Shown one piece after another: positions 24,476-64,000 of a stretch of 64,000 bases of DNA (position 1 is its first letter; every line of letters starts with the position of its first letter). Made by a program: the position numbers and the translations under genes. Under the pieces are notes generated by a model. The model ran no database searches and was not told the origin of the DNA. It was given only the letters and a program-made list of their open reading frames with translations. The stretch lies in IMG/VR virus record IMGVR_UViG_3300020714_000006; one strand, written 5' to 3'. The DNA comes from a virus (lineage: Duplodnaviria; Heunggongvirae; Uroviricota; Caudoviricetes).

Positions 24476-24664
24476 AAGAATTGAAGAACTAGAAGATTGG
24501 AAAATGAGATTTAATTGGAACCTACACGGTGAAGTTGAATCATGGGGAGATTGGGAAACAGCATATCCTATTGATGCTGCTGAATTAGAAGAATTAAAAA
24601 GGTTGACAAACCGAAATAATGGTAGTATACTACACACATAAACTAAACTATTGAGGAATTTAAA

Positions 24665-24863: not shown

Positions 24864-24892
24864 TTGACAAAAGGTAAGACCGATAGTATAAT
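24864..24892 (+). promoter_or_regulatory. Sigma70 consensus promoter.
   Basis: TTGACA(24864-69), a 17-nt spacer, then TATAAT(24887-92). The core is identical to that of the 17852 promoter. Confidence 0.7.
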
Positions 24893-27699: not shown

Positions 27700-27864
27700 A
27701 TGTCTACAATTACAATAGATTTACCAGATGAAATACTATTTCAACTAATGTTGTTAGCTCACGAACGTGATATCACATTGAATAAATTAATAGAAAGCAT
27801 TCTGCGTGAATATATTGATAGAATAGAACCATCTGAAGCAGATAATCAATTGACAGGTTGTTAA
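27700..27864 (+). CDS. Ribbon-helix-helix (CopG/Arc-like) DNA-binding protein.
   Basis: MSTITIDLPDEILFQLMLLAHERDITLNKLIESILREYI fits a beta-strand plus two-helix RHH fold. The tracked ORF 27670-27864 has an upstream alternative start. Confidence 0.55.
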   Translation: MSTITIDLPDEILFQLMLLAHERDITLNKLIESILREYIDRIEPSEADNQLTGC

Positions 27865-27878
27865 CAACCTGTTATAAT
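27850..27878 (+). promoter_or_regulatory. Sigma70 consensus promoter whose spacer is a perfect 20-bp palindrome (candidate operator).
   Basis: TTGACA(27850-55), the palindrome acaggttgttaacaacctgt(27853-72), then TATAAT(27873-78). The RHH gene's stop codon lies inside the palindrome. Confidence 0.65.
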
Positions 27879-27906: not shown

Positions 27907-28185
27907 ATGAAAATCAAAACTAGAGTTAAATTTTCGGACAAAGGCCATTTATTAGTTGATGTACCATATAAACATGGTAATGTAACTTGGGCATTGAACT
28001 TCCATAGAAATCATTTTGACTGGATCCTTTTTAATAAACCAGACAAGTATAGTCCAACTAGAGTTACATTGGATCATCACAGTATTTTGAATGGTAAGAA
28101 ATTACGTTCACAAATGATTTCAAAGGCAGCTGCCTCTCATCAATATGGTGTTTTAGACAAAATCAAGGCTACCATTAAGGGGTAA
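27907..28185 (+). CDS. Hypothetical protein downstream of the operator promoter.
   Basis: ORF. Confidence 0.45.
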   Translation: MKIKTRVKFSDKGHLLVDVPYKHGNVTWALNFHRNHFDWILFNKPDKYSPTRVTLDHHSILNGKKLRSQMISKAAASHQYGVLDKIKATIKG

Positions 28186-28652: not shown

Positions 28653-28704
28653 TGCGAAAACCTAACAGTAATTATAATTACTGTTAGGGAATTATATAAG
28701 TTTA

Positions 28705-29292
28705 TTATAATTTTAATTTTTTAAGATTAAATGGGAGGCGTCCTGGAACACATTCTTCTGGACAGGATGAGCTTAAGAAAGAACGTTGTCCATTATTATA
28801 CCATTTATAATTTTCTCGTGACTTAGTTCTTTGGGCAATTGCATCAGCCGGTTGTTGTTTTCCACGTTTTACTGCTGCATTATTTTCTTTATGTTCCGCA
28901 GTTTGTGGTCCATAACGTTGCCCTTTCTTAACAGATGCCATATGCTGTTTGTATTCTGCAGTGCGAACTTTTCCAGAATTAGCAATTGATAATTTTTTAA
29001 TAGTTTCAATAGAATGCTTACCACTATGACCAGCTTCTTCTTTAAGATTAGCCCATTCAGTGCTTTCAACTACATTCCATAAATTACTATAATATAAACC
29101 CCATTCTTCAATTTCGCTCATGCTTTGACATTCTTTGAGAATTATTGTTTCAACATCATATCCATGTTTTTTGATGTGTAATTTCCATTTAACTCCAGAA
29201 CCTTTATAATTGTATGGGTCTGGTTTAGTTGTCATTCCTAAATATTTAAGGCCGGTTTTTCTATGTGTTTTTTGGTATAGATAAATAATCAT
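28705..29292 (-). CDS. GIY-YIG-like (Seg-type) homing endonuclease.
   Basis: N-terminal IIYLYQKTHRKTGLKYLGMTT..YKGSGVKWKLHIKKHG, a basic C-terminal half, and a CPEEC cluster. Confidence 0.6.
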   Translation of the reverse strand: MIIYLYQKTHRKTGLKYLGMTTKPDPYNYKGSGVKWKLHIKKHGYDVETIILKECQSMSEIEEWGLYYSNLWNVVESTEWANLKEEAGHSGKHSIETIKKLSIANSGKVRTAEYKQHMASVKKGQRYGPQTAEHKENNAAVKRGKQQPADAIAQRTKSRENYKWYNNGQRSFLSSSCPEECVPGRLPFNLKKLKL

Positions 29293-29426
29293 GTTGATAC
29301 TCCATATAGTATTAAAGTAGATGGGAAGTCCAATTCCGCGATCTACACTTATTTATCATTTTCTTCTTGACATTTATACTTCATTATAATATAATATACT
29401 CTTATAAACTATAAAATATTAAAAAT

Positions 29427-31576: not shown

Positions 31577-32431
31577 ATGAAGAAAATTTTAGCAGTATTA
31601 GCATTTGCATTTTTAATAACCGGTTGCAGTGATGTTCCGTCTGGATACGTTGGTATTAAGGTAAATCTTCTTGGTTCTGAAAAAGGGGTAGATCTACAAG
31701 AGTTAGGGACCGGTCGATATTGGATTGGTATTAATGAAAAATTATATACATTTCCGGTATTTTCACAGAACCAAGTTTGGACAAAAGATAGTAATGAAGG
31801 AAGTCCAAACGATGACAGTGTGACCTTTAATACTGAAGAAGGGCTTTCTGTTAACACCGACATTGGTATATCTTATAGTATAGATCCAAAGCGGGTATCT
31901 CTAATCTTTCAAAAATATAGAAAAGGTATAGATGAAATTACTTCTATATACATGAGAAGCATGGTGCGTGATGCATTAGTAGCAGAAGCATCTTCTAGGT
32001 CAATGGAAAGTATTTATGGTAGAGGAAAAACTGATTTTATAGCTGCTGTCCAACACCGGGTTATATCACAAACAGAACCACTTGGTATAATTGTAGAGAA
32101 GATTTATTTAATTGGTGAGTTAAGATTGCCACAAAGTGTTATTTCTTCGATAAATGCAAAAATTGAAGCCACACAGAAGACAGCACAAAGAGAAAATGAG
32201 GTTGCCCAGTCGAAAGCAGAGGCCGATAAATTAGAGCAAACCGCTAGAGGGGAAGCAAATTCAAAATTGCTTTTAGCAGAAGCGGAAGCCAAAGCTATTA
32301 AAATAAAAGGTGATGCTCTATCAGCTAATCCAAAATTGGTAGAATTATCAGCAGTAGAAAAATGGAACGGGGTTTTACCACAATATATGATGGGTTCGAC
32401 AACACCATTTATAAATATGTCTTCAAAATAG
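31577..32431 (+). CDS. SPFH/band-7 (prohibitin/HflKC-like) domain lipoprotein.
   Basis: Signal peptide with an LITGCS lipobox, an SPFH core (GYVGIKV...DSVTFNTEEGLSVNTDIGISYSIDP), and an Ala/Glu-rich coiled-coil C-terminus. Confidence 0.6.
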   Translation: MKKILAVLAFAFLITGCSDVPSGYVGIKVNLLGSEKGVDLQELGTGRYWIGINEKLYTFPVFSQNQVWTKDSNEGSPNDDSVTFNTEEGLSVNTDIGISYSIDPKRVSLIFQKYRKGIDEITSIYMRSMVRDALVAEASSRSMESIYGRGKTDFIAAVQHRVISQTEPLGIIVEKIYLIGELRLPQSVISSINAKIEATQKTAQRENEVAQSKAEADKLEQTARGEANSKLLLAEAEAKAIKIKGDALSANPKLVELSAVEKWNGVLPQYMMGSTTPFINMSSK

Positions 32432-32438
32432 GTTTAAC

Positions 32439-32467
32439 TACATCCAGACGGTTACCGTCTGGATGTA
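32439..32467. terminator. 13-bp perfect inverted repeat, a probable bidirectional terminator.
   Basis: tacatccagacgg tta ccgtctggatgta, lying between convergent genes. Confidence 0.6.
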
Positions 32468-32478
32468 CTATCAAAAAA

Positions 32479-33444
32479 TTATTTTGGATGATTGCGATTA
32501 TAAGTTTCTTTATATTTTAATCTTGACTGCAGTTTTTGTTCGGCGGTCCTACCACTTTTTGTTTGTTTTTCTTTCCGTTTTCGTTCATTCTCCTGTTCAG
32601 GAGTTCTAGCAGCATGAGAATTTTTTAGTTTTAGTGTTATTACTAATTTTTCTTCTGGTGTTTTAGCATCAAATGTAGCTTTGCGCTTTGCTATAATATC
32701 TAATTTTTCTTCTAACGGTTTTGCCTCGATGGTTGCTTTAAGTGTTGTTTTTTGTTTTTCTATTTGAGTTTGTTTTTCTTCAGGTGACCTAGCATTCTTT
32801 GTTTTCCATTCTTTTTGTTTAGTTTCCAATTTTTCTTCTGATGTTCTATTAATTTTAGCTAATCTTTGTTTTTCTTTCGTTGCTAATTTTTCCTCTGGAG
32901 ATTTTGCATCTTCTGTAGCTTTTTTCTTTGCATTGACCAATAATCTTTCTGCTGGGGTTCTTGAAGTTTTTGCTAGTCGTTGCTTTTCTTTAATTGTATA
33001 GTTTTCTTCTGCACTTCTAGCTGCTTCTGTAGCTTTTTTCTTTTCTGCAATTAATGTTTTTTCATACAAACATTTAGCCTTTCTAGTTATTGCAGTTTTT
33101 GCAATAGAATCTTCAGTAGCATGAAATTTATTACCACCGTTATTTTTATTAAGCCAATATGGACTTTTCGCTGCATTAATTCTTGTTAAGAACTTATGTT
33201 CCCAAGCGACTGTATCTTTTCTAGTTTTAAATATTTTTCGTATTTGAACAGAAAATAATTCCTTGCCATGTAGAGCAATTAGATTTTTTATTTCTTTTGA
33301 TGATGTAAAATATGTCACCCAAAACTCAGTTGGATTTGCCACATTTTTTCTACTATTTGCATACCTACATCCGTAATAACGTTGGCCGGTTATTAGAAAT
33401 GTTATGCAATATGTATACGGGACATAAATAAGTTTGTTGGTCAT
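32479..33444 (-). CDS. GIY-YIG homing endonuclease with about eight tandem DNA-binding repeat modules.
   Basis: N-terminal YVPYTYCITFLITGQRYYGCRYANS, followed by repeats of the form TPEEKLxxKEKQRLAKxxRT. Confidence 0.7.
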   Translation of the reverse strand: MTNKLIYVPYTYCITFLITGQRYYGCRYANSRKNVANPTEFWVTYFTSSKEIKNLIALHGKELFSVQIRKIFKTRKDTVAWEHKFLTRINAAKSPYWLNKNNGGNKFHATEDSIAKTAITRKAKCLYEKTLIAEKKKATEAARSAEENYTIKEKQRLAKTSRTPAERLLVNAKKKATEDAKSPEEKLATKEKQRLAKINRTSEEKLETKQKEWKTKNARSPEEKQTQIEKQKTTLKATIEAKPLEEKLDIIAKRKATFDAKTPEEKLVITLKLKNSHAARTPEQENERKRKEKQTKSGRTAEQKLQSRLKYKETYNRNHPK

Positions 33445-37275: not shown

Positions 37276-37725
37276 TTATTTTCCTCTTGTTAGTTTACTT
37301 AATAATAAAAAATTGTCATAACTTTGTTGTAAAGCTGGGTTCTCTAATATTTCTTCAGCTTCTTTAATCATTTCTGAAACACCAGCTCTCACAGCTTCCA
37401 TTATAGTAGAAGTTTTCAATCTACACAAGTCTTCCCCATAGACTTCTCTCATACGGTCCCATGCTTCTTTTTGTTCTTGTGTATATGGTGGTATTTCTGG
37501 AGTATAAGTCAACTTATCTACAATAATAGCAGCAATGCGGTCTTCTGCATAACTTCCAGCAGCAATCATTGGTGCAAATGCTGGTTCAATGTTATATCGT
37601 CTAGATCTAGACCCTGGTTTGCATACTGTTAGATGAGTGCCTTCTGGCCAAGAATCGTTAAATTCATTGTCATATTCACGTGCAGGAATATATTTTCTGC
37701 CTTTTTTGATAAAATAAGTAGTCAT
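37276..37725 (-). CDS. Hypothetical protein.
   Basis: 149-aa ORF with no family motif. Confidence 0.4.
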   Translation of the reverse strand: MTTYFIKKGRKYIPAREYDNEFNDSWPEGTHLTVCKPGSRSRRYNIEPAFAPMIAAGSYAEDRIAAIIVDKLTYTPEIPPYTQEQKEAWDRMREVYGEDLCRLKTSTIMEAVRAGVSEMIKEAEEILENPALQQSYDNFLLLSKLTRGK

Positions 37726-37778
37726 TGATGGTTCCTGTAATCGTTAAAGTTCTATTATAACAATTACAGGAATAGATG

Positions 37779-38042
37779 TCAAGTAGAAAACTTGATTGTG
37801 TAGAATGTGTAATCTGATGGTTTAATATAAGCTGTTATATAATATTCGTATCCAAGGGTATATGGATGGTAATGTTTAACTACCTCTATATGTATACAAT
37901 GATTACTAACCCATTGTCCTTCTTCAGAATTTAGCCAAATATCTAATATTTCATTCTGTGTCGGTGATGTCATATATATTACCACTCTATGAAATATTTT
38001 TCTTTCATACACGGAGTCGTTAAATATCTTAAAATTATCCAT
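37779..38042 (-). CDS. WFxLRW-family small protein (divergent).
   Basis: C-terminus YTFYTIKFST. Confidence 0.45.
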   Translation of the reverse strand: MDNFKIFNDSVYERKIFHRVVIYMTSPTQNEILDIWLNSEEGQWVSNHCIHIEVVKHYHPYTLGYEYYITAYIKPSDYTFYTIKFST

Positions 38043-53177: not shown

Positions 53178-54458
53178 ATGAAAACAATAATTAAATCAAG
53201 TCAACATAATATCAAATTTGCTAATATTGGTAAACAACTGATATTAAAAGAATTCATTACCGAATATGATCGGGTATTGTGGTGGTTTGTTGATTATTTA
53301 TGGAATAATAAAATCATTTGGGGCAATAATAGAACTTTAGATATCAAAAATAATAAATTAGATGTTCCAAGTTTTATTTCTACCACTGATATCGATTTAA
53401 TTACCGATCTTTCAGCAAGGGCAATTAAATTAGCGTCAGGGGAAGCTCTGGCAATTATCAAAAGTAGAACAGAAAAACGAAGAAAACAATTATTTGTTCT
53501 CGCTAAACAAATGCGTGCTGGTGATAAATCTATTTCAAAATTACAATCAAAAATTGATAGTAATCCATTATCAAAACCAACACGAAATAGCAATAATTTA
53601 GTAGCAAATTTGGATAGTAATTGCTGTAAATATATCCCAGATACCACTGGTATCTTTGATGGATGGCTGAAATTATCATCACTTGGTAAAAGGTATGGAC
53701 ATATTTATATACCAATTAAAACAACAAGGCATTCAAATCAATTAGCCAAGAAAGGTTATAAAATGATTACTAGTTGGCAGATTTCTACTAACACTTTATA
53801 TTCCAGATGGGAAACTACACGAGAGAAATCAACTGGTAGTAAAATCATTGGTGCAGACCAAGGATATGTTACTTGCTTATCATTAAGTGATGGACAAACA
53901 ACTAGTGCTGATATGCATGGTCATGATTTACATAGTATAATCAATAAGTTATCATATAAAAAGAAAGGCAGTAATGGCTTTAAACGAGTACAGGAACACC
54001 GAACAAATTATATCAATTGGTCCATAAATCAATTGGATTTATCAAATATAAAAGAACTCAGATTAGAAAAGTTATTTCAAATGAGAAAAGGTTCTAATAT
54101 GGGAAGAAATTTAAGTCATTGGACTTATACACAAATCAATGCACAGATAATGAAGCGATGTGAAGAACTGGGTGTCCCAGTAATCGAGCAATCGGCTAGT
54201 TATAGAAGTCAAAGATGTAGTGATTGTGGATGGACCCAAAAATCAAATAGGAAGGGAAAGGAGTTTATATGCAATCAATGTGGCGTATGCCATGATGCCG
54301 ATATAAATGGCGCCCTAAATCATGAAGCCGACTTATATCGGCTCCCTGTTGGTTTTTGGCAGAACAAATTTAATATCAAGGGGTTCTATTGGACTTCTAG
54401 AATGGTATTAGATTTATCTGGTGCGGAGCTTATAGTCCCGCATGTACAAAATGTATGA
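53178..54458 (+). CDS. tnpB: TnpB (IS200/IS605 OrfB-family RuvC-like nuclease), stand-alone.
   Basis: RuvC-I motif IGADQG, a Zn finger (CSDCGW...CNQCGVC) and RuvC-III motif DADINGALN. No tnpA is adjacent. Confidence 0.85.
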   Translation: MKTIIKSSQHNIKFANIGKQLILKEFITEYDRVLWWFVDYLWNNKIIWGNNRTLDIKNNKLDVPSFISTTDIDLITDLSARAIKLASGEALAIIKSRTEKRRKQLFVLAKQMRAGDKSISKLQSKIDSNPLSKPTRNSNNLVANLDSNCCKYIPDTTGIFDGWLKLSSLGKRYGHIYIPIKTTRHSNQLAKKGYKMITSWQISTNTLYSRWETTREKSTGSKIIGADQGYVTCLSLSDGQTTSADMHGHDLHSIINKLSYKKKGSNGFKRVQEHRTNYINWSINQLDLSNIKELRLEKLFQMRKGSNMGRNLSHWTYTQINAQIMKRCEELGVPVIEQSASYRSQRCSDCGWTQKSNRKGKEFICNQCGVCHDADINGALNHEADLYRLPVGFWQNKFNIKGFYWTSRMVLDLSGAELIVPHVQNV

Positions 54459-59252: not shown

Positions 59253-59262
59253 AACTTTACAA

Positions 59263-59306
59263 AGTCCTATTAAAGTGGTATAATACTATTTTAATAGGAC
59301 TATTTT
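59263..59306 (+). terminator. 12-bp stem hairpin terminator whose loop contains an extended -10 element.
   Basis: agtcctattaaa [gtggtataatactat] tttaataggact, followed by ATTTT. Confidence 0.6.
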
Positions 59307-60545: not shown

Positions 60546-62930
60546 ATGGCAGTAGTAAGCATCAGTCGAATACAACAACGTCGCGGAAAAGCGAATAGCG
60601 GCACCGGATTACCACAATTAGCAAGTGGTGAGTTTGGTTGGGCAGTTGATACACAAGAACTTTACATTGGTAATGGTTCTGTATCAGAAGGGGCCCCAGC
60701 AGTTGGAAATACACGAATTTTAACACAACTTGATATAGATAAAATAACTTCTCCATCTAGTATCTTTGGTCAATTAGCGTATGTCTATAAATCAAGTGGT
60801 GCAATTAGCAATTATTCTTATTTAGAAGGTAGTGGATATACTGATAACGTATATGCAGATATCCCATTAAATTGGATATCTGGTGGTAATCAACCAATTG
60901 CAAACCCAATAGCAAATATAACTGTCACTAATGGTGTTGTTACATCTGTTGTATTATTATTTTCTGGAATCGGAACATCAATCAATGCAATATTTGATGA
61001 TAATGGTGTATTAGGACCTGGATCAGGATTTCAATTACGTGTAACAAGTGTAATTAATAGCACTGGAACATTGATAACACAAGCAGTAAAAAGAACTATT
61101 CAATCTAGATTAGATGACCAGGTTAATTCTAAAGATTTTGGAACAGTTGGTGATGGAGCAGTTGATGATACACAATTTCTTCAAAATTCTATAAATCAAT
61201 TATTTTATAATTCTCCACAATCAGCAACATCATCAATAACTGGTATATTATCTATTAATAACAACGTGGTTTTATGTGCGGCAACTACCGATATGGTAGG
61301 TGCAGTAGTAACTGGAACGGGTATACCATATGGAACTTCAATAGTTAGTGTTAATGTTGGAATTAGTTTTACAATGACTGATGTCGCGTCTGCAAATGGT
61401 TCACAAACATTAACCCTTGCATTGATCCCATCACATAATGTTGATTATAATACCGCTGATAGAGTTATATTAGAGATTCCACCAGGAACATATCGTATTA
61501 CTAATACTCTGTATATTCCAAGTTATGCTACAATAGTAGGTGCGGGAAATTCTAGCACTATATTATATTTTGATCCTAATCTGGCCGTTACTGCAACTAT
61601 TACATCTGGCTCATTCATTCTTAATACTATTGCTGCTGATATTTCAATGTCTGGCGCATCAGTCACAGGACCAGGAATCCCATTGAATACTACAGTAGTA
61701 TCAGTTAACCCTGGATATTCAGTTACATTATCTGCAGCTGCAACTGCTGACGAAATTTTGCAAGTGTTTCAAATAATTTTATCAGCATCTACCCCTGTTA
61801 TTCAATATATCAATGATATATCATCAATTGGGGCACCAGGAAATATTGAACAAACTACTTATATAAACCAACCAAGATTTATTACACTTAAAAATATAAA
61901 AATAACCACAGCATTAGGATCACAAATATGTGTACAATTAGATTCTGCAAGAAATTGTTTTTTTGAAAATGTGGCAATATCAGGTAATTGGAATGAAGTA
62001 TTTGATGAAAATAGCATCGGTATAAAACTTAATGCATTAAGTCAATTAGTTACATGTCAAGATAACATATTTAATAATATTTCTATTAATGGTTTTGGAT
62101 ATGGTATTTATTCTGATAGTGATATTGCAAATAACGTGTTTTCAACCGGCTATATGACTGATGTTAAGTTTGGGATTGCATTGGGGTTAAATACCGATGG
62201 AATAACAGTCGGTAAACAATATGGACCAACTACTACAAAAATTACTAAATTTAATTTTAATAATGTAAAACATCAAGCAATAGTTCTTGGGTTATGTGCA
62301 CATAATACCATTAGTGATATTAATCTAGTAAATGTTGGCAACGATGGTGGGTCATCAACTTCTCCATTATATCCACAAATATATATTAATAGCTATAATA
62401 ATATAGTTGAACGTGTTACGTCAGACAGAACTGAATTGTTATCATCACCATCTGTACTTACACAATATATACCAAGTGTTTCTGGTAAAGTATCTTTTAC
62501 AGCATTTGGTGGGTTTCAAAAGTCAACAATGTTGCAATCAGCTAATCCGTTATCATTATTTAAGTTACCAATGCCAACTAATATTAATGGTATTGCATCA
62601 GGTGCTATAAATTATAAAATTAACTATGTCTATACTAGCACTACTAACCACTATGTAAGAAGTGGTACTTTACATATTACATTAAATGTTACGTCATATT
62701 ACGTTTCTGGGGTATCTAATTATTCTAATATCGAAGTGTATGATGAATACAACTACACTGGATTAGAAGACTTTAATAGATCATTAACATTTAGTGCCAA
62801 ATTAGTTACATCAACCGGGTCTGTTGCTGCAATAGGAACTGCACCATACAATATTATAATAACTTACACTAATACCTTAACCGCCGATAGTGGAACATTA
62901 ACTTGCTCTTACAGTTATAATATATTATAA
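60546..62930 (+). CDS. Tailspike/depolymerase with a right-handed beta-helix (pectate lyase 3-like) domain.
   Basis: DFGTVGDGAVDDTQFLQNSINQ matches the N-terminal signature of pectate-lyase-fold tailspikes. The protein is a long Asn/Thr/Ser/Gly/Ile-rich beta sequence. Confidence 0.7.
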   Translation: MAVVSISRIQQRRGKANSGTGLPQLASGEFGWAVDTQELYIGNGSVSEGAPAVGNTRILTQLDIDKITSPSSIFGQLAYVYKSSGAISNYSYLEGSGYTDNVYADIPLNWISGGNQPIANPIANITVTNGVVTSVVLLFSGIGTSINAIFDDNGVLGPGSGFQLRVTSVINSTGTLITQAVKRTIQSRLDDQVNSKDFGTVGDGAVDDTQFLQNSINQLFYNSPQSATSSITGILSINNNVVLCAATTDMVGAVVTGTGIPYGTSIVSVNVGISFTMTDVASANGSQTLTLALIPSHNVDYNTADRVILEIPPGTYRITNTLYIPSYATIVGAGNSSTILYFDPNLAVTATITSGSFILNTIAADISMSGASVTGPGIPLNTTVVSVNPGYSVTLSAAATADEILQVFQIILSASTPVIQYINDISSIGAPGNIEQTTYINQPRFITLKNIKITTALGSQICVQLDSARNCFFENVAISGNWNEVFDENSIGIKLNALSQLVTCQDNIFNNISINGFGYGIYSDSDIANNVFSTGYMTDVKFGIALGLNTDGITVGKQYGPTTTKITKFNFNNVKHQAIVLGLCAHNTISDINLVNVGNDGGSSTSPLYPQIYINSYNNIVERVTSDRTELLSSPSVLTQYIPSVSGKVSFTAFGGFQKSTMLQSANPLSLFKLPMPTNINGIASGAINYKINYVYTSTTNHYVRSGTLHITLNVTSYYVSGVSNYSNIEVYDEYNYTGLEDFNRSLTFSAKLVTSTGSVAAIGTAPYNIIITYTNTLTADSGTLTCSYSYNIL

Positions 62931-62936
62931 CTTTTA

Positions 62937-62965
62937 CTTGACTTATCAATCTAACAGGTGTATAA
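62937..62965 (+). promoter_or_regulatory. Sigma70-like promoter overlapped by an imperfect palindrome.
   Basis: TTGACT(62937-42), a 17-nt spacer, then TATAAT(62960-65). The inverted repeat tctaacaggtg...cacttgttaga flanks the -10 element. Confidence 0.55.
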
Positions 62966-63155
62966 TATCACTTGTTAGATTGAACAAATACACCAATTTA
63001 AATCATCATTTAACCACAATAATACGTGATATAACAATCACTTATTAATTTTTTTTGTCTTAATATGTCATCAATAAATACTACCTAACAAATAAATTAA
63101 ATAACCGAAAGTAATATGTTTAACAATAGATAAATATAGGTTTAGGAAAATTAAA

Positions 63156-64000
63156 ATGTATTATCTTTATTTAAAAACTCATAATAACACCGGGCTCAAA
63201 TATCTCGGAAAAACAACACAAGATCCATTTTCTTATGCAGGGTCTGGTAAATACTGGATTAGACATTTAAAAAAACATGGTGATTATGTTACTACAGAAA
63301 TATTAGCAGAATGTAAAACAATAGAAGAATTTAAAATAATTGCAACCCATTATTCAACTTTATTAGATATTGTTAAATCAAAAGAGTTTGCCAATTTGGT
63401 GCCAGAAACTGGGGATGGTGGGAATACCTCTGATTCTGAAAACTATAAAAAATACTTTGCAGAACATAAACATTCTGAAGTATTCAGTGAACGCGGCAAG
63501 CGGTCTAGGGTAACAGCAAAAGAGAATGGAACAGATATTGTAAGAACAGAAAAATATAAGAAAACTGTTAATTCATCACAATGGAAAGAAACAATTGGCA
63601 ATGAAAAAATAAAAAAATGTAATGAAAATAGAGATCATAAAAAAGCCGGAGCTAACATATCAATGGCTAAACAATCTGCTGAATGGAAAAAAACAATAGG
63701 AAAACAAGCGACTGAAAAAAGACTTCAATCAACTGATTGGAAAAAACTAGCACAATCGGTATCTGCTACTAGAAACAGTCAAGAATGGAAAGATACTATT
63801 GGTAAAAAAGCTATTCAAAAAACATCAATAACAAAAAGTAATCCAGAGTGGAAAAACACTATTGGAAAAGATAGTAGTAAAAAACGAACAGATACTATTA
63901 GTAGTTCAGCTTGGAAGGAACAAAATTATATATGTTGCATACATTGCAATAAATTATTAGATCCGTGTAATTATAAAAGATGGCATGGGGATAAATGCAA
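63156..64000 (+). CDS. Seg-type GIY-YIG homing endonuclease, 3'-partial (the ORF is open to the window end).
   Basis: MYYLYLKTHNNTGLKYLGKTTQDPFSYAGSGKYWIRHLKKHG, then six or more WKxTIGK repeat modules, with no stop codon before position 64000. Confidence 0.65.
   Translation, partial: MYYLYLKTHNNTGLKYLGKTTQDPFSYAGSGKYWIRHLKKHGDYVTTEILAECKTIEEFKIIATHYSTLLDIVKSKEFANLVPETGDGGNTSDSENYKKYFAEHKHSEVFSERGKRSRVTAKENGTDIVRTEKYKKTVNSSQWKETIGNEKIKKCNENRDHKKAGANISMAKQSAEWKKTIGKQATEKRLQSTDWKKLAQSVSATRNSQEWKDTIGKKAIQKTSITKSNPEWKNTIGKDSSKKRTDTISSSAWKEQNYICCIHCNKLLDPCNYKRWHGDKC

What the first reader, a model, noticed from the sequence alone, without database searches (positions are those of the whole stretch)
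27700..27878. RHH regulator gene terminates inside a perfect 20-bp palindrome that forms the spacer of a consensus promoter
The sequence TTGACA-ggttgttaacaacctgt-TATAAT has a 17-nt spacer that is almost entirely one palindrome, acaggttgttaacaacctgt. It starts 3 nt after the start of the RHH ORF's stop codon. This is a textbook operator position for repressing the downstream gene 27907-28185. A related half-site, TAACAGGTG, appears in an imperfect palindrome around the -10 element of the promoter at 62937-62978, ahead of the terminal GIY-YIG gene. This suggests a small regulon.
Basis: seen in the sequence. Interest (0 to 1): 0.58.

Follow-up and report, generated by a model that had tools for sequence, protein, structure and literature searches.

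The report
Hairpin-in-promoter cassette after a small RHH gene
A consensus promoter in a large freshwater phage carries a perfect 20-bp palindrome between its two boxes, overlapping the end of a small ribbon-helix-helix gene, and it looks more like a known promoter/stem-loop cassette of T4-type phages than a dedicated repressor binding site.

Summary
TTGACA(27850-55)-17 nt-TATAAT(27873-78) contains the perfect palindrome ACAGGTTGTTAACAACCTGT (27853-72). The 54-aa ORF 27700-27864 ends with its TAA at the dyad centre, and its predicted fold is ribbon-helix-helix.

The operator/regulon reading is not favoured:
- Relatives all keep the promoter over the gene's last codons (QLTG[C]*), but the palindrome is perfect in only some lineages.
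- It is degenerate where the RHH protein is identical, or where the N-terminal strand is identical.
- The half-site does not recur in the 64 kb.
- The second site shares only ACAGGT, at a different spacing, and is really the conserved upstream region of nrdA.

Three other strong promoters in the window carry unrelated inverted repeats over their -10 boxes. Every non-Watson-Crick pair in these repeats is G·T on the sense strand, which points to RNA hairpins. This matches the PeSL (promoter-early stem-loop) cassettes of T4-type phages, where the hairpin sits in the spacer or over the -10. Gene insertions and deletions among relatives also fall at this junction.

Best reading (about 0.45): a PeSL-like promoter whose hairpin acts on read-through RNA from upstream. 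RHH operator: about 0.2. Modest interest.

The parts
27700..27864 (+). 54-aa ribbon-helix-helix protein gene. The last five codons (CAA TTG ACA GGT TGT = QLTGC) encode the -35 box and the left arm of the palindrome.
   Evidence: ORF and SD. RHH fold. Weak CopG/Arc profile hits. The tail QLTG(C)* is conserved in all relatives, and tail residues 48-51 have low pLDDT.
27850..27878 (+). Consensus sigma-70-type promoter: TTGACA, 17 nt, TATAAT, with an extended -10 TG.
   Evidence: It is one of 16 perfect TTGACA-17-TATAAT sites in the window. It is conserved in every relative examined.
27853..27872 (.). Perfect 20-bp palindrome ACAGGTTGTTAACAACCTGT. It extends to 27851-27874 with one G·T pair. As RNA it is a 10-pair hairpin (one G·U) with a UUAA loop.
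   Evidence: palindrome scan; -13 kcal/mol, z -3.7; pair list.
27862..27864 (+). TAA stop codon of the RHH gene, at the dyad centre, which is the hairpin loop.
27907..28185 (+). 92-aa ORFan, the first gene served by the promoter. It is replaced or preceded by a lipoprotein gene in some relatives.
   Evidence: no family. (insertions at this junction).
62938..62983 (+). Second promoter (TTGACT-17-TATAAT, 62938-62966), with a 15-nt inverted repeat at 62946-60/62969-83 whose loop is the -10.
   Evidence: Conserved upstream of nrdA in relatives.
59256..59301 (+). Third promoter (TTTACA-17-TATAAT), with a 19-nt inverted repeat at 59263-81/59283-301 over the -10. It has two G·T pairs and is followed by ATTTTAT.
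37732..37782 (-). Fourth promoter (perfect consensus, 37782-37754 on the - strand), with a 15-nt inverted repeat at 37732-46/37758-72. The downstream arm contains the SD of the next gene.

Best explanation
The element is a composite promoter/stem-loop cassette of the PeSL type (promoter-early stem-loop, described in T4-type phages). It is packed so tightly that the last five codons and the stop codon of the upstream RHH gene supply the -35 box, the left arm and the loop.

On DNA it is a strong sigma-70-type early promoter for the next small gene. On RNA made from upstream promoters (the nearest is at 24864), the same sequence folds into a 10-pair hairpin exactly at the 3' end of the RHH message. 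There it most likely attenuates or terminates read-through, or protects the 3' end. Downstream genes would then depend on their own promoter.

The shared promoter sequence also serves as a junction for gene gain and loss. The adjacency of the RHH gene is a matter of packing, not of a dedicated repressor-operator pair.

Shown: the anatomy, its recurrence in the genome, the sense-strand G·U bias, and the variation among relatives. Inferred: that the hairpin acts on RNA, and what it does there.
For: 1. [quoted passage not shown] One such stem-loop reduced lacZ expression about as much as the rrnB T1 terminator (PMC2839356).
2. The window has 16 perfect TTGACA-17-TATAAT promoters. Of its 27 strongest inverted repeats, 5 overlap strong promoters, although promoter zones cover only 2.5% of the window, so about 0.7 are expected. 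Their sequences are unrelated: 27853, 37732, 59263 and 62946, plus the AT-rich 62911-62934 palindrome that flanks the 62938 promoter.
3. All 5 non-Watson-Crick pairs in the four main repeats are G·T on the transcribed strand. In relative L084, 3 of the 4 right-arm substitutions give G·U, and RNAfold still draws the hairpin.
4. Relatives differ by gene insertions and deletions exactly at this junction. A lipoprotein gene lies directly after the promoter in L082/89/90/91/217, and two small upstream ORFs are lost in L090.
5. The identical RHH protein, or the same N-terminal strand, is found with and without the palindrome.
6. The lineage has T4-type traits: SegE-like endonucleases, a gp13 domain in a relative, and nrdA.
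Against: - The hairpin has no U-run directly after it (UAUAAUAG...), and the terminator scan does not call it.
- Only about 4 of 30 strong promoters carry a hairpin, whereas PeSLs in RB49/phi1 are numerous and share a stem motif.
- Local folding energy of promoter regions as a whole is no better than background.
- The G·U bias rests on few events (p about 0.03 under a transitions-only model). The right arm evolves at about the neutral rate, so selection for the hairpin is weak or lineage-specific.
- No transcript data exist.
Confidence: 0.45

Rival explanations
1. Repressor-operator pair. The RHH protein, made from upstream promoters, binds the 20-bp palindrome as a dimer of dimers and shuts off the promoter for the downstream genes.
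For: The fold is RHH. A 20-bp perfect dyad filling the spacer is a classical operator position and a suitable size for an Arc/Mnt-type tetramer (established knowledge). The 29-bp core is identical in three sublineages whose flanks differ by about 15-25%. The gene and the site are physically fused. A second promoter has ACAGGT...ACYTGT arms, and that pattern is expected 0.07 times by chance.
Against: - The identical protein P0002 sits next to both a perfect and a degenerate palindrome. P0005 and P0006 share the same N-terminal strand, yet only one has the palindrome.
- The 67%-identical homologue has no palindrome.
- The half-site is not enriched.
- No palindrome was seen at the operon's own promoter at 24864.
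- The 71 IMG/VR homologues show no recurring palindrome at the gene's 3' end.
- The predicted DNA-facing strand residues are T3, T5 and D7. The position equivalent to Arc R13 is mostly acidic across the family, while the invariant part is the helix-helix loop LAHERDIT.N.
- Spacing in site 2 differs by 2 bp.
Confidence: 0.2
2. There is no selected function. A quasi-palindrome, seeded by the -35 ACA, the extended -10 TG and the TGT-TAA codons, was perfected by template-switch mutation or by chance. It is tolerated because only spacer length matters for the promoter.
For: Ten of the 20 positions (-35 ACA, extended -10 TG, TGT codon, TAA stop) are under other constraints, and the outer ACAG/CTGT pairs persist even in L084. 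The right arm changes at about the neutral rate in L084 (3 of 8) and is lost in L082 and L085.
Against: The remaining 6 free positions still match, which is about 1e-2 over all promoters. Strong inverted repeats are enriched at promoters in this genome. The mismatches show a sense-strand G·U bias.
Confidence: 0.2
3. A DNA-level element for something other than the RHH: an operator for another phage or host dimeric regulator, or a supercoil-dependent cruciform that modulates the promoter.
For: Perfect dyad symmetry in the spacer. The outer frame T[G/A]ACAG-N12-CTGTTA is shared with the 28-bp palindrome at 28661-28688.
Against: No candidate regulator was identified. The 28661 palindrome belongs to an inserted endonuclease cassette that relatives lack. 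The G·T mismatches favour single-strand pairing. GIY-YIG enzymes use long asymmetric sites (established knowledge).
Confidence: 0.1

Closest known systems
PeSL (promoter-early stem-loop) cassettes of T4-type phages RB49/phi1, PST and nt-1 (Arbiol et al. 2010, PMC2839356; Comeau et al. 2014, PMC4122927)
   Same: A consensus sigma-70 promoter with a stem-loop between the -35 and -10 or over the -10. G·T pairs occur in the stems. The cassettes sit between small ORFan genes, with an SD and start codon just downstream. Relatives differ by gene insertions and deletions at these junctions.
   Different: The upstream gene's stop codon lies inside the hairpin loop rather than in an AT-rich stretch upstream of the -35. 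The stems share no motif (no GGGG...CCCC-type consensus). Only a minority of promoters carry a stem. The host phage is a roughly 300-kb uncultured freshwater phage whose T4 relationship is only hinted at. Terminator activity and mini-circle formation are untested.
Arc/Mnt (P22 immI) and CopG (pMV158) ribbon-helix-helix repressors with dyad operators overlapping promoters
   Same: A small RHH protein, with a dyad-symmetric site of about 20 bp inside a promoter.
   Different: The site is downstream of the gene, not at its own promoter. It is not co-conserved with the protein. The predicted reading strand carries an Asp where Arc has Arg. No binding data exist.
T4 hairpin/promoter arrangements at genes e, soc and I-TevI, where long transcripts hide the ribosome-binding site and transcripts starting inside the hairpin expose it (recalled from the T4 literature; not checked in the papers read here)
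   Same: Applies to the sister element at 37732-37782(-). The downstream arm contains the SD, and the embedded promoter should start transcription inside the loop.
   Different: At 27853 the hairpin does not include the downstream SD, so this mechanism does not apply to the reported site.

Membership tests
Ribbon-helix-helix (CopG/Arc/MetJ) superfamily | N-terminal strand followed by two helices, with a fold match to solved RHH proteins | tested here: met
   AF2 model with pLDDT 82, helices at 10-22 and 27-42 and an extended N-terminus. The listed Foldseek PDB hits are RHH proteins, with the best at TM 0.7-0.89 and rmsd 1-2 Å, although E-values are weak (0.05-1) because the domain is short.
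Ribbon-helix-helix (CopG/Arc/MetJ) superfamily | Sequence match above the curated Pfam threshold | tested here: not met
   PF12441 scores 20.8 bits against a cut-off of 28. PF01402 scores 15.4 against 20.5. PHROG 582 'Arc-like repressor' has E 7e-4. A profile search of PDB sequences found no RHH protein.
RHH repressor with a cognate operator | Dyad-symmetric site overlapping a promoter | tested here: met
RHH repressor with a cognate operator | Operator co-conserved with the protein in relatives | tested here: not met
   The identical protein or identical N-terminal strand occurs with a perfect, a degenerate or no palindrome.
RHH repressor with a cognate operator | Specific binding of the protein to the site | not testable with these tools
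   Needs an EMSA or footprint.
RHH repressor with a cognate operator | Further operator copies (regulon or autoregulation) | tested here: not met
   Half-site count is 7 against 5.6 expected. The only other ACAGGT...ACYTGT site has different spacing. No inverted repeat overlaps the upstream promoters at 24603 and 24864.
PeSL promoter/stem-loop cassette | Strong sigma-70 consensus promoter | tested here: met
   12/12 match.
PeSL promoter/stem-loop cassette | Stable stem-loop between the -35 and -10 or overlapping a box | tested here: met
   -13 kcal/mol, z -3.7. The position matches the PeSL classes described in the paper.
PeSL promoter/stem-loop cassette | Repeated through an ORFan-rich region and associated with indels between close relatives | tested here: inconclusive
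   Indels at the junction are seen, and promoter-embedded repeats are enriched. However, only about 4 of 30 promoters carry one, and the stems share no motif.
PeSL promoter/stem-loop cassette | Stem-loop terminates or attenuates upstream transcription | not testable with these tools
   No transcript data. There is no U-run, and the terminator scan does not call it.
PeSL promoter/stem-loop cassette | Host genome is a T4-type phage | tested here: inconclusive
   A SegE-type endonuclease, a gp13 domain and nrdA in a relative. No core-gene phylogeny was done, and there is no DNA match in GenBank phages.
Rho-independent terminator | G+C-rich stem directly followed by a U-run | tested here: not met
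   Not listed. The stem is 40% GC and the tail is UAUAAUAG.
Type II toxin-antitoxin (RHH antitoxin) | Toxin gene co-transcribed and conserved next to the antitoxin | tested here: not met
   A promoter separates the two genes. The neighbour has no family hit and is displaced by another gene in relatives.

The most novel reading that the evidence does not exclude
The RHH gene and the promoter behind it form one self-contained mobile regulatory module. The gene's last codons encode the operator for its own product inside the next promoter. Wherever the module lands, downstream genes are switched on early and then shut off by the RHH protein. The lineages with a decayed palindrome would have lost that control. 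The same RNA hairpin might also couple translation termination at the loop UAA to read-through.
Probability: 0.15. Interest if true: 0.5.

Novelty: new member of a known kind. Interest (0 to 1): 0.3.

Why it matters
If the PeSL reading is right, composite promoter/stem-loop cassettes extend beyond the cultured T4-type coliphages and vibriophages to an uncultured freshwater phage of about 300 kb. This example would be an extreme case of sequence economy: coding sequence, stop codon, -35 box, spacer and RNA hairpin all occupy the same 29 bp.

It is also a caution for annotation. A perfect palindrome next to a small DNA-binding-fold gene is not sufficient evidence of a repressor-operator pair. 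Here natural variants with the same protein but a broken palindrome provide ready-made controls for an experiment.

Tried and rejected
- blastn of the region and tblastn of the RHH protein against GenBank phages found no match. Only distant AAA-ATPase hits appeared.
- An exact search for the palindrome in IMG/VR gave 0 hits.
- IMG/VR searches with the neighbouring genes found no syntenic relatives. The RHH search there gave 71 distant homologues, none with a comparable palindrome at the 3' end and none with the window's neighbouring genes.
None was next to an RHH gene, so that scan was wasted.
- A profile search of PDB sequences did not find RHH proteins.
- Rfam gave no match in the window.
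- The toxin-antitoxin reading was rejected because a promoter lies between the genes and the partner is not conserved.
- The homing-endonuclease target-site reading was rejected. The palindrome is present with and without the nearby endonuclease gene, and such enzymes use asymmetric sites.
- The classical terminator reading was rejected because there is no U-run.
- A post-hoc motif T[AT]ACAG in four of the inverted repeats, and the shared frame TAACAG-N12-CTGTTA, were noted but not trusted. The motif was chosen after seeing the data, one repeat has the opposite orientation, and most extra matches lie in coding sequence.

Full report
**What is there**

The window is 33% G+C phage DNA. Identical copies lie on uncultured freshwater metagenome contigs of up to 305-334 kb. 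Nothing similar is present in GenBank phages.

Positions 27850-27878 read TTGACA-GGTTGTTAACAACCTGT-TATAAT. This is a 12/12 consensus promoter with an extended -10 TG. It is one of 16 perfect TTGACA-17-TATAAT sites in the 64 kb, 13 of them on the + strand among small ORFs at 10-31 kb.

The 20 bp at 27853-27872 are a perfect palindrome. With one G·T pair the dyad extends to 27851-27874.

The upstream ORF is best read as 27700-27864: 54 aa, with the SD AGAAGG upstream, starting right after the stop codon of the preceding ORF. Its last codons, CAA TTG ACA GGT TGT TAA, supply the -35, the left arm and the loop. The stop codon therefore sits at the dyad centre.

**Is it more than chance?**

Perfect palindromes with arms of 10 or more are expected about 0.15 times per window, and three are seen. 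That estimate is generous to the finding. ACA belongs to the -35, TG to the extended -10, and TTAA results from the codons TGT+TAA. About six right-arm positions are free, which gives roughly 1e-2 across the 30 strong promoters. The palindrome is still unlikely to be accidental.

**The protein**

- Pfam hits to CopG_antitoxin and RHH_1 are below threshold. PHROG 582 'Arc-like repressor' has E 7e-4.
- A profile search of PDB sequences found nothing relevant.
- An AlphaFold model (pLDDT 82) shows an extended N-terminus plus two helices.
- The listed Foldseek PDB matches are RHH proteins (StnY, CopA, PutA, Arc, CopG, AmrZ), with the best at TM 0.7-0.89. The fold assignment holds.

The domain is widespread. 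71 IMG/VR loci encode it, often as the C-terminal domain of 165-200-aa proteins, with an invariant LAHERDIT(L/F)N loop and a variable, often acidic, N-terminal strand. By alignment with Arc and CopG, from my own knowledge of those structures, the DNA-facing residues here would be T3, T5 and D7. None of those 71 loci has a comparable palindrome at the gene's end or shares neighbouring genes with the window.

**Relatives**

Closer homologues (67-91% identity) all end in QLTG(C)*. Their contigs show that the promoter overlapping the gene's end is conserved in every lineage, but the palindrome is not:

| State of the palindrome | Loci |
|---|---|
| Perfect | window, L081/83/92/93/215, L089, and L094 (which has a TATACT -10) |
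| One central change that removes the stop codon | L217 |
| Four right-arm substitutions | L084, L216 |
| 2-bp deletion plus substitutions | L082/90/91 |
| Absent | L085-88 |

Two comparisons matter most:
- L081 and L082 encode the identical protein P0002, yet only L081 has the perfect palindrome.
- P0005 (perfect palindrome) and P0006 (broken palindrome) have the same N-terminal strand.

L081 and L084 are equally distant from the window in the RHH gene (86-87% DNA identity). One keeps 8 of 8 non-coding right-arm bases and the other keeps 5 of 8. The arm therefore drifts at roughly the neutral rate. This argues against a required RHH operator.

**Regulon claim**

The half-site ACAGGTTGTT with up to one mismatch occurs 7 times against 5.6 expected.

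The site at 62938-62983 is a real, strong inverted repeat: 15-nt arms, 14 of 15 paired, with the -10 in the loop. It shares only ACAGGT/ACYTGT with the first site, at N10 rather than N8 spacing. That pattern is expected 0.07 times by chance, but it was chosen after seeing the data.

In relatives whose tail-fibre-like protein is 77% identical, the promoter, the core repeat (there a perfect CTAACAGGTG-N8-CACCTGTTAG) and about 140 nt of leader are conserved. The leader is about 92% conserved, more than the adjacent coding sequence. In those relatives this region precedes ribonucleotide reductase nrdA, not an endonuclease gene. The terminal ORF of the window starts at 63156. It is a paralogue of the 28705-29292 endonuclease-like ORF, which matches PHROG 314 'homing endonuclease'. 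It appears to be an insertion.

**A recurrent pattern**

Of the 27 strongest inverted repeats in the window, 5 overlap strong promoters. Promoter zones make up 2.5% of the sequence, so about 0.7 are expected.

Besides 27853, three promoters have long repeats over their -10 boxes: 62946-83, 59263-301 and, on the - strand, 37732-72. Their sequences are unrelated.

All five non-Watson-Crick pairs in these four repeats are G·T on the sense strand. In L084, three of the four substitutions create G·U pairs, and the RNA hairpin is still predicted. This is a small sample, about p 0.03 if only transitions are considered, but it points to pairing in RNA rather than symmetric protein binding to duplex DNA.

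At 37782(-), the downstream arm contains the SD of the next gene. Read-through RNA would hide that SD, while RNA started inside the loop would not.

**Comparison with known systems**

Arbiol et al. (PMC2839356) described PeSLs in T4-type phages. [quoted passage not shown] Their stems contain G-T pairs. One stem-loop reduced lacZ expression about as much as the rrnB T1 terminator. Recombination between PeSLs shuffles ORFan genes. Comeau et al. (PMC4122927) found that stem sequences differ between phage groups.

The present element fits in anatomy and in behaviour. A lipoprotein gene is inserted directly behind the promoter in several relatives, and two small ORFs are lost upstream in L090.

It differs in four ways:
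- The upstream stop codon lies in the loop.
- The stems share no motif.
- Only a minority of promoters carry a stem.
- No U-run follows the hairpin, so the terminator scan does not call it.

T4-type affinity is only hinted at, by a SegE-like endonuclease, a gp13 domain and nrdA.

**Verdict**

The most likely reading (about 0.45) is a PeSL-like promoter/hairpin cassette whose hairpin acts on read-through RNA from upstream promoters and whose promoter drives the next gene.

The rivals:
- RHH-operator reading, about 0.2. It remains possible and is easily tested, because natural broken-palindrome variants exist.
- A neutral quasi-palindrome, about 0.2.
- Another DNA-level role, about 0.1.

This is a new member of a known kind, of modest interest.

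Noticed in passing
window 28661-28688: Perfect 28-bp palindrome CCTAACAGTAATTATAATTACTGTTAGG between convergent genes. It lies in a block of about 770 bp between the 73-aa gene and the kinase-like gene (about 28655-29426), together with an endonuclease-like ORF (28705-29292, - strand) and a perfect promoter (29367). Relatives L081/82/84 diverge from the window right after the 73-aa gene's stop codon and have no endonuclease ORF there. The palindrome shares the frame T[G/A]ACAG-N12-CTGTTA with the reported one.
   Followed up: partly
window 37732-37782 (- strand): Perfect consensus promoter with a 15-nt inverted repeat whose downstream arm holds the SD (ACAGGAAccatcaATG) of gene 37276-37725. 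Read-through RNA would mask the SD, and RNA started at the embedded promoter would not. This resembles a design I recall from phage T4, which I did not check in the literature here.
   Followed up: partly
window 59256-59301: Promoter TTTACA-17-TATAAT with a 19-nt inverted repeat (two G·T pairs) over the -10, followed by ATTTTAT. It sits directly after the stop codon of the upstream ORF.
   Followed up: partly
window 62967-63105; L218 4390-4530: About 140 nt of leader downstream of the 62938 promoter is more conserved (about 92%) than the adjacent tail-fibre coding sequence. In relatives it precedes nrdA. It contains a further inverted repeat at 63020-63047 (GTGAT...ATCAC). It may be a regulatory RNA or protein-binding region for ribonucleotide reductase expression. 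There is no Rfam match.
   Followed up: partly
window 62913-62932: AT-rich perfect 20-bp palindrome AGTTATAATATATTATAACT covering the stop codon of the 794-aa pectate-lyase-like tail-fibre gene, 5 nt upstream of the next -35.
   Followed up: no
IMG/VR loci L005-L009, L023-L027, L034-L038 and others: The RHH-like domain with invariant LAHERDIT(L/F)N is the C-terminal domain of 165-200-aa proteins in many aquatic phages. The N-terminal part has no Pfam or PHROG family. In L005/6/8/9/29 the gene is followed by a classical terminator whose T-run merges into a TTGACT promoter.
   Followed up: partly
window 53178-54458: A 426-aa ORF with a Cas12f1-like TNB domain and transposase PHROG hits (TnpB/OrfB-like). 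A perfect promoter on the opposite strand lies just upstream (53158-53130). Relatives carry an OrfB_IS605 gene near the tail-fibre gene.
   Followed up: no
window 32437-32469: A 33-bp near-perfect palindrome ACTACATCCAGACGGTTACCGTCTGGATGTACT between the Band_7 gene (31577-32431) and a convergent SegE-type GIY-YIG gene (32479-33444, - strand).
   Followed up: no
L217 681-709: A variant in which the stop codon TAA is AAA, at the palindrome centre, so the RHH ORF reads through the promoter for 17 more codons. It comes from a single contig of about 1.1 kb and may be an assembly or sequencing error.
   Followed up: no
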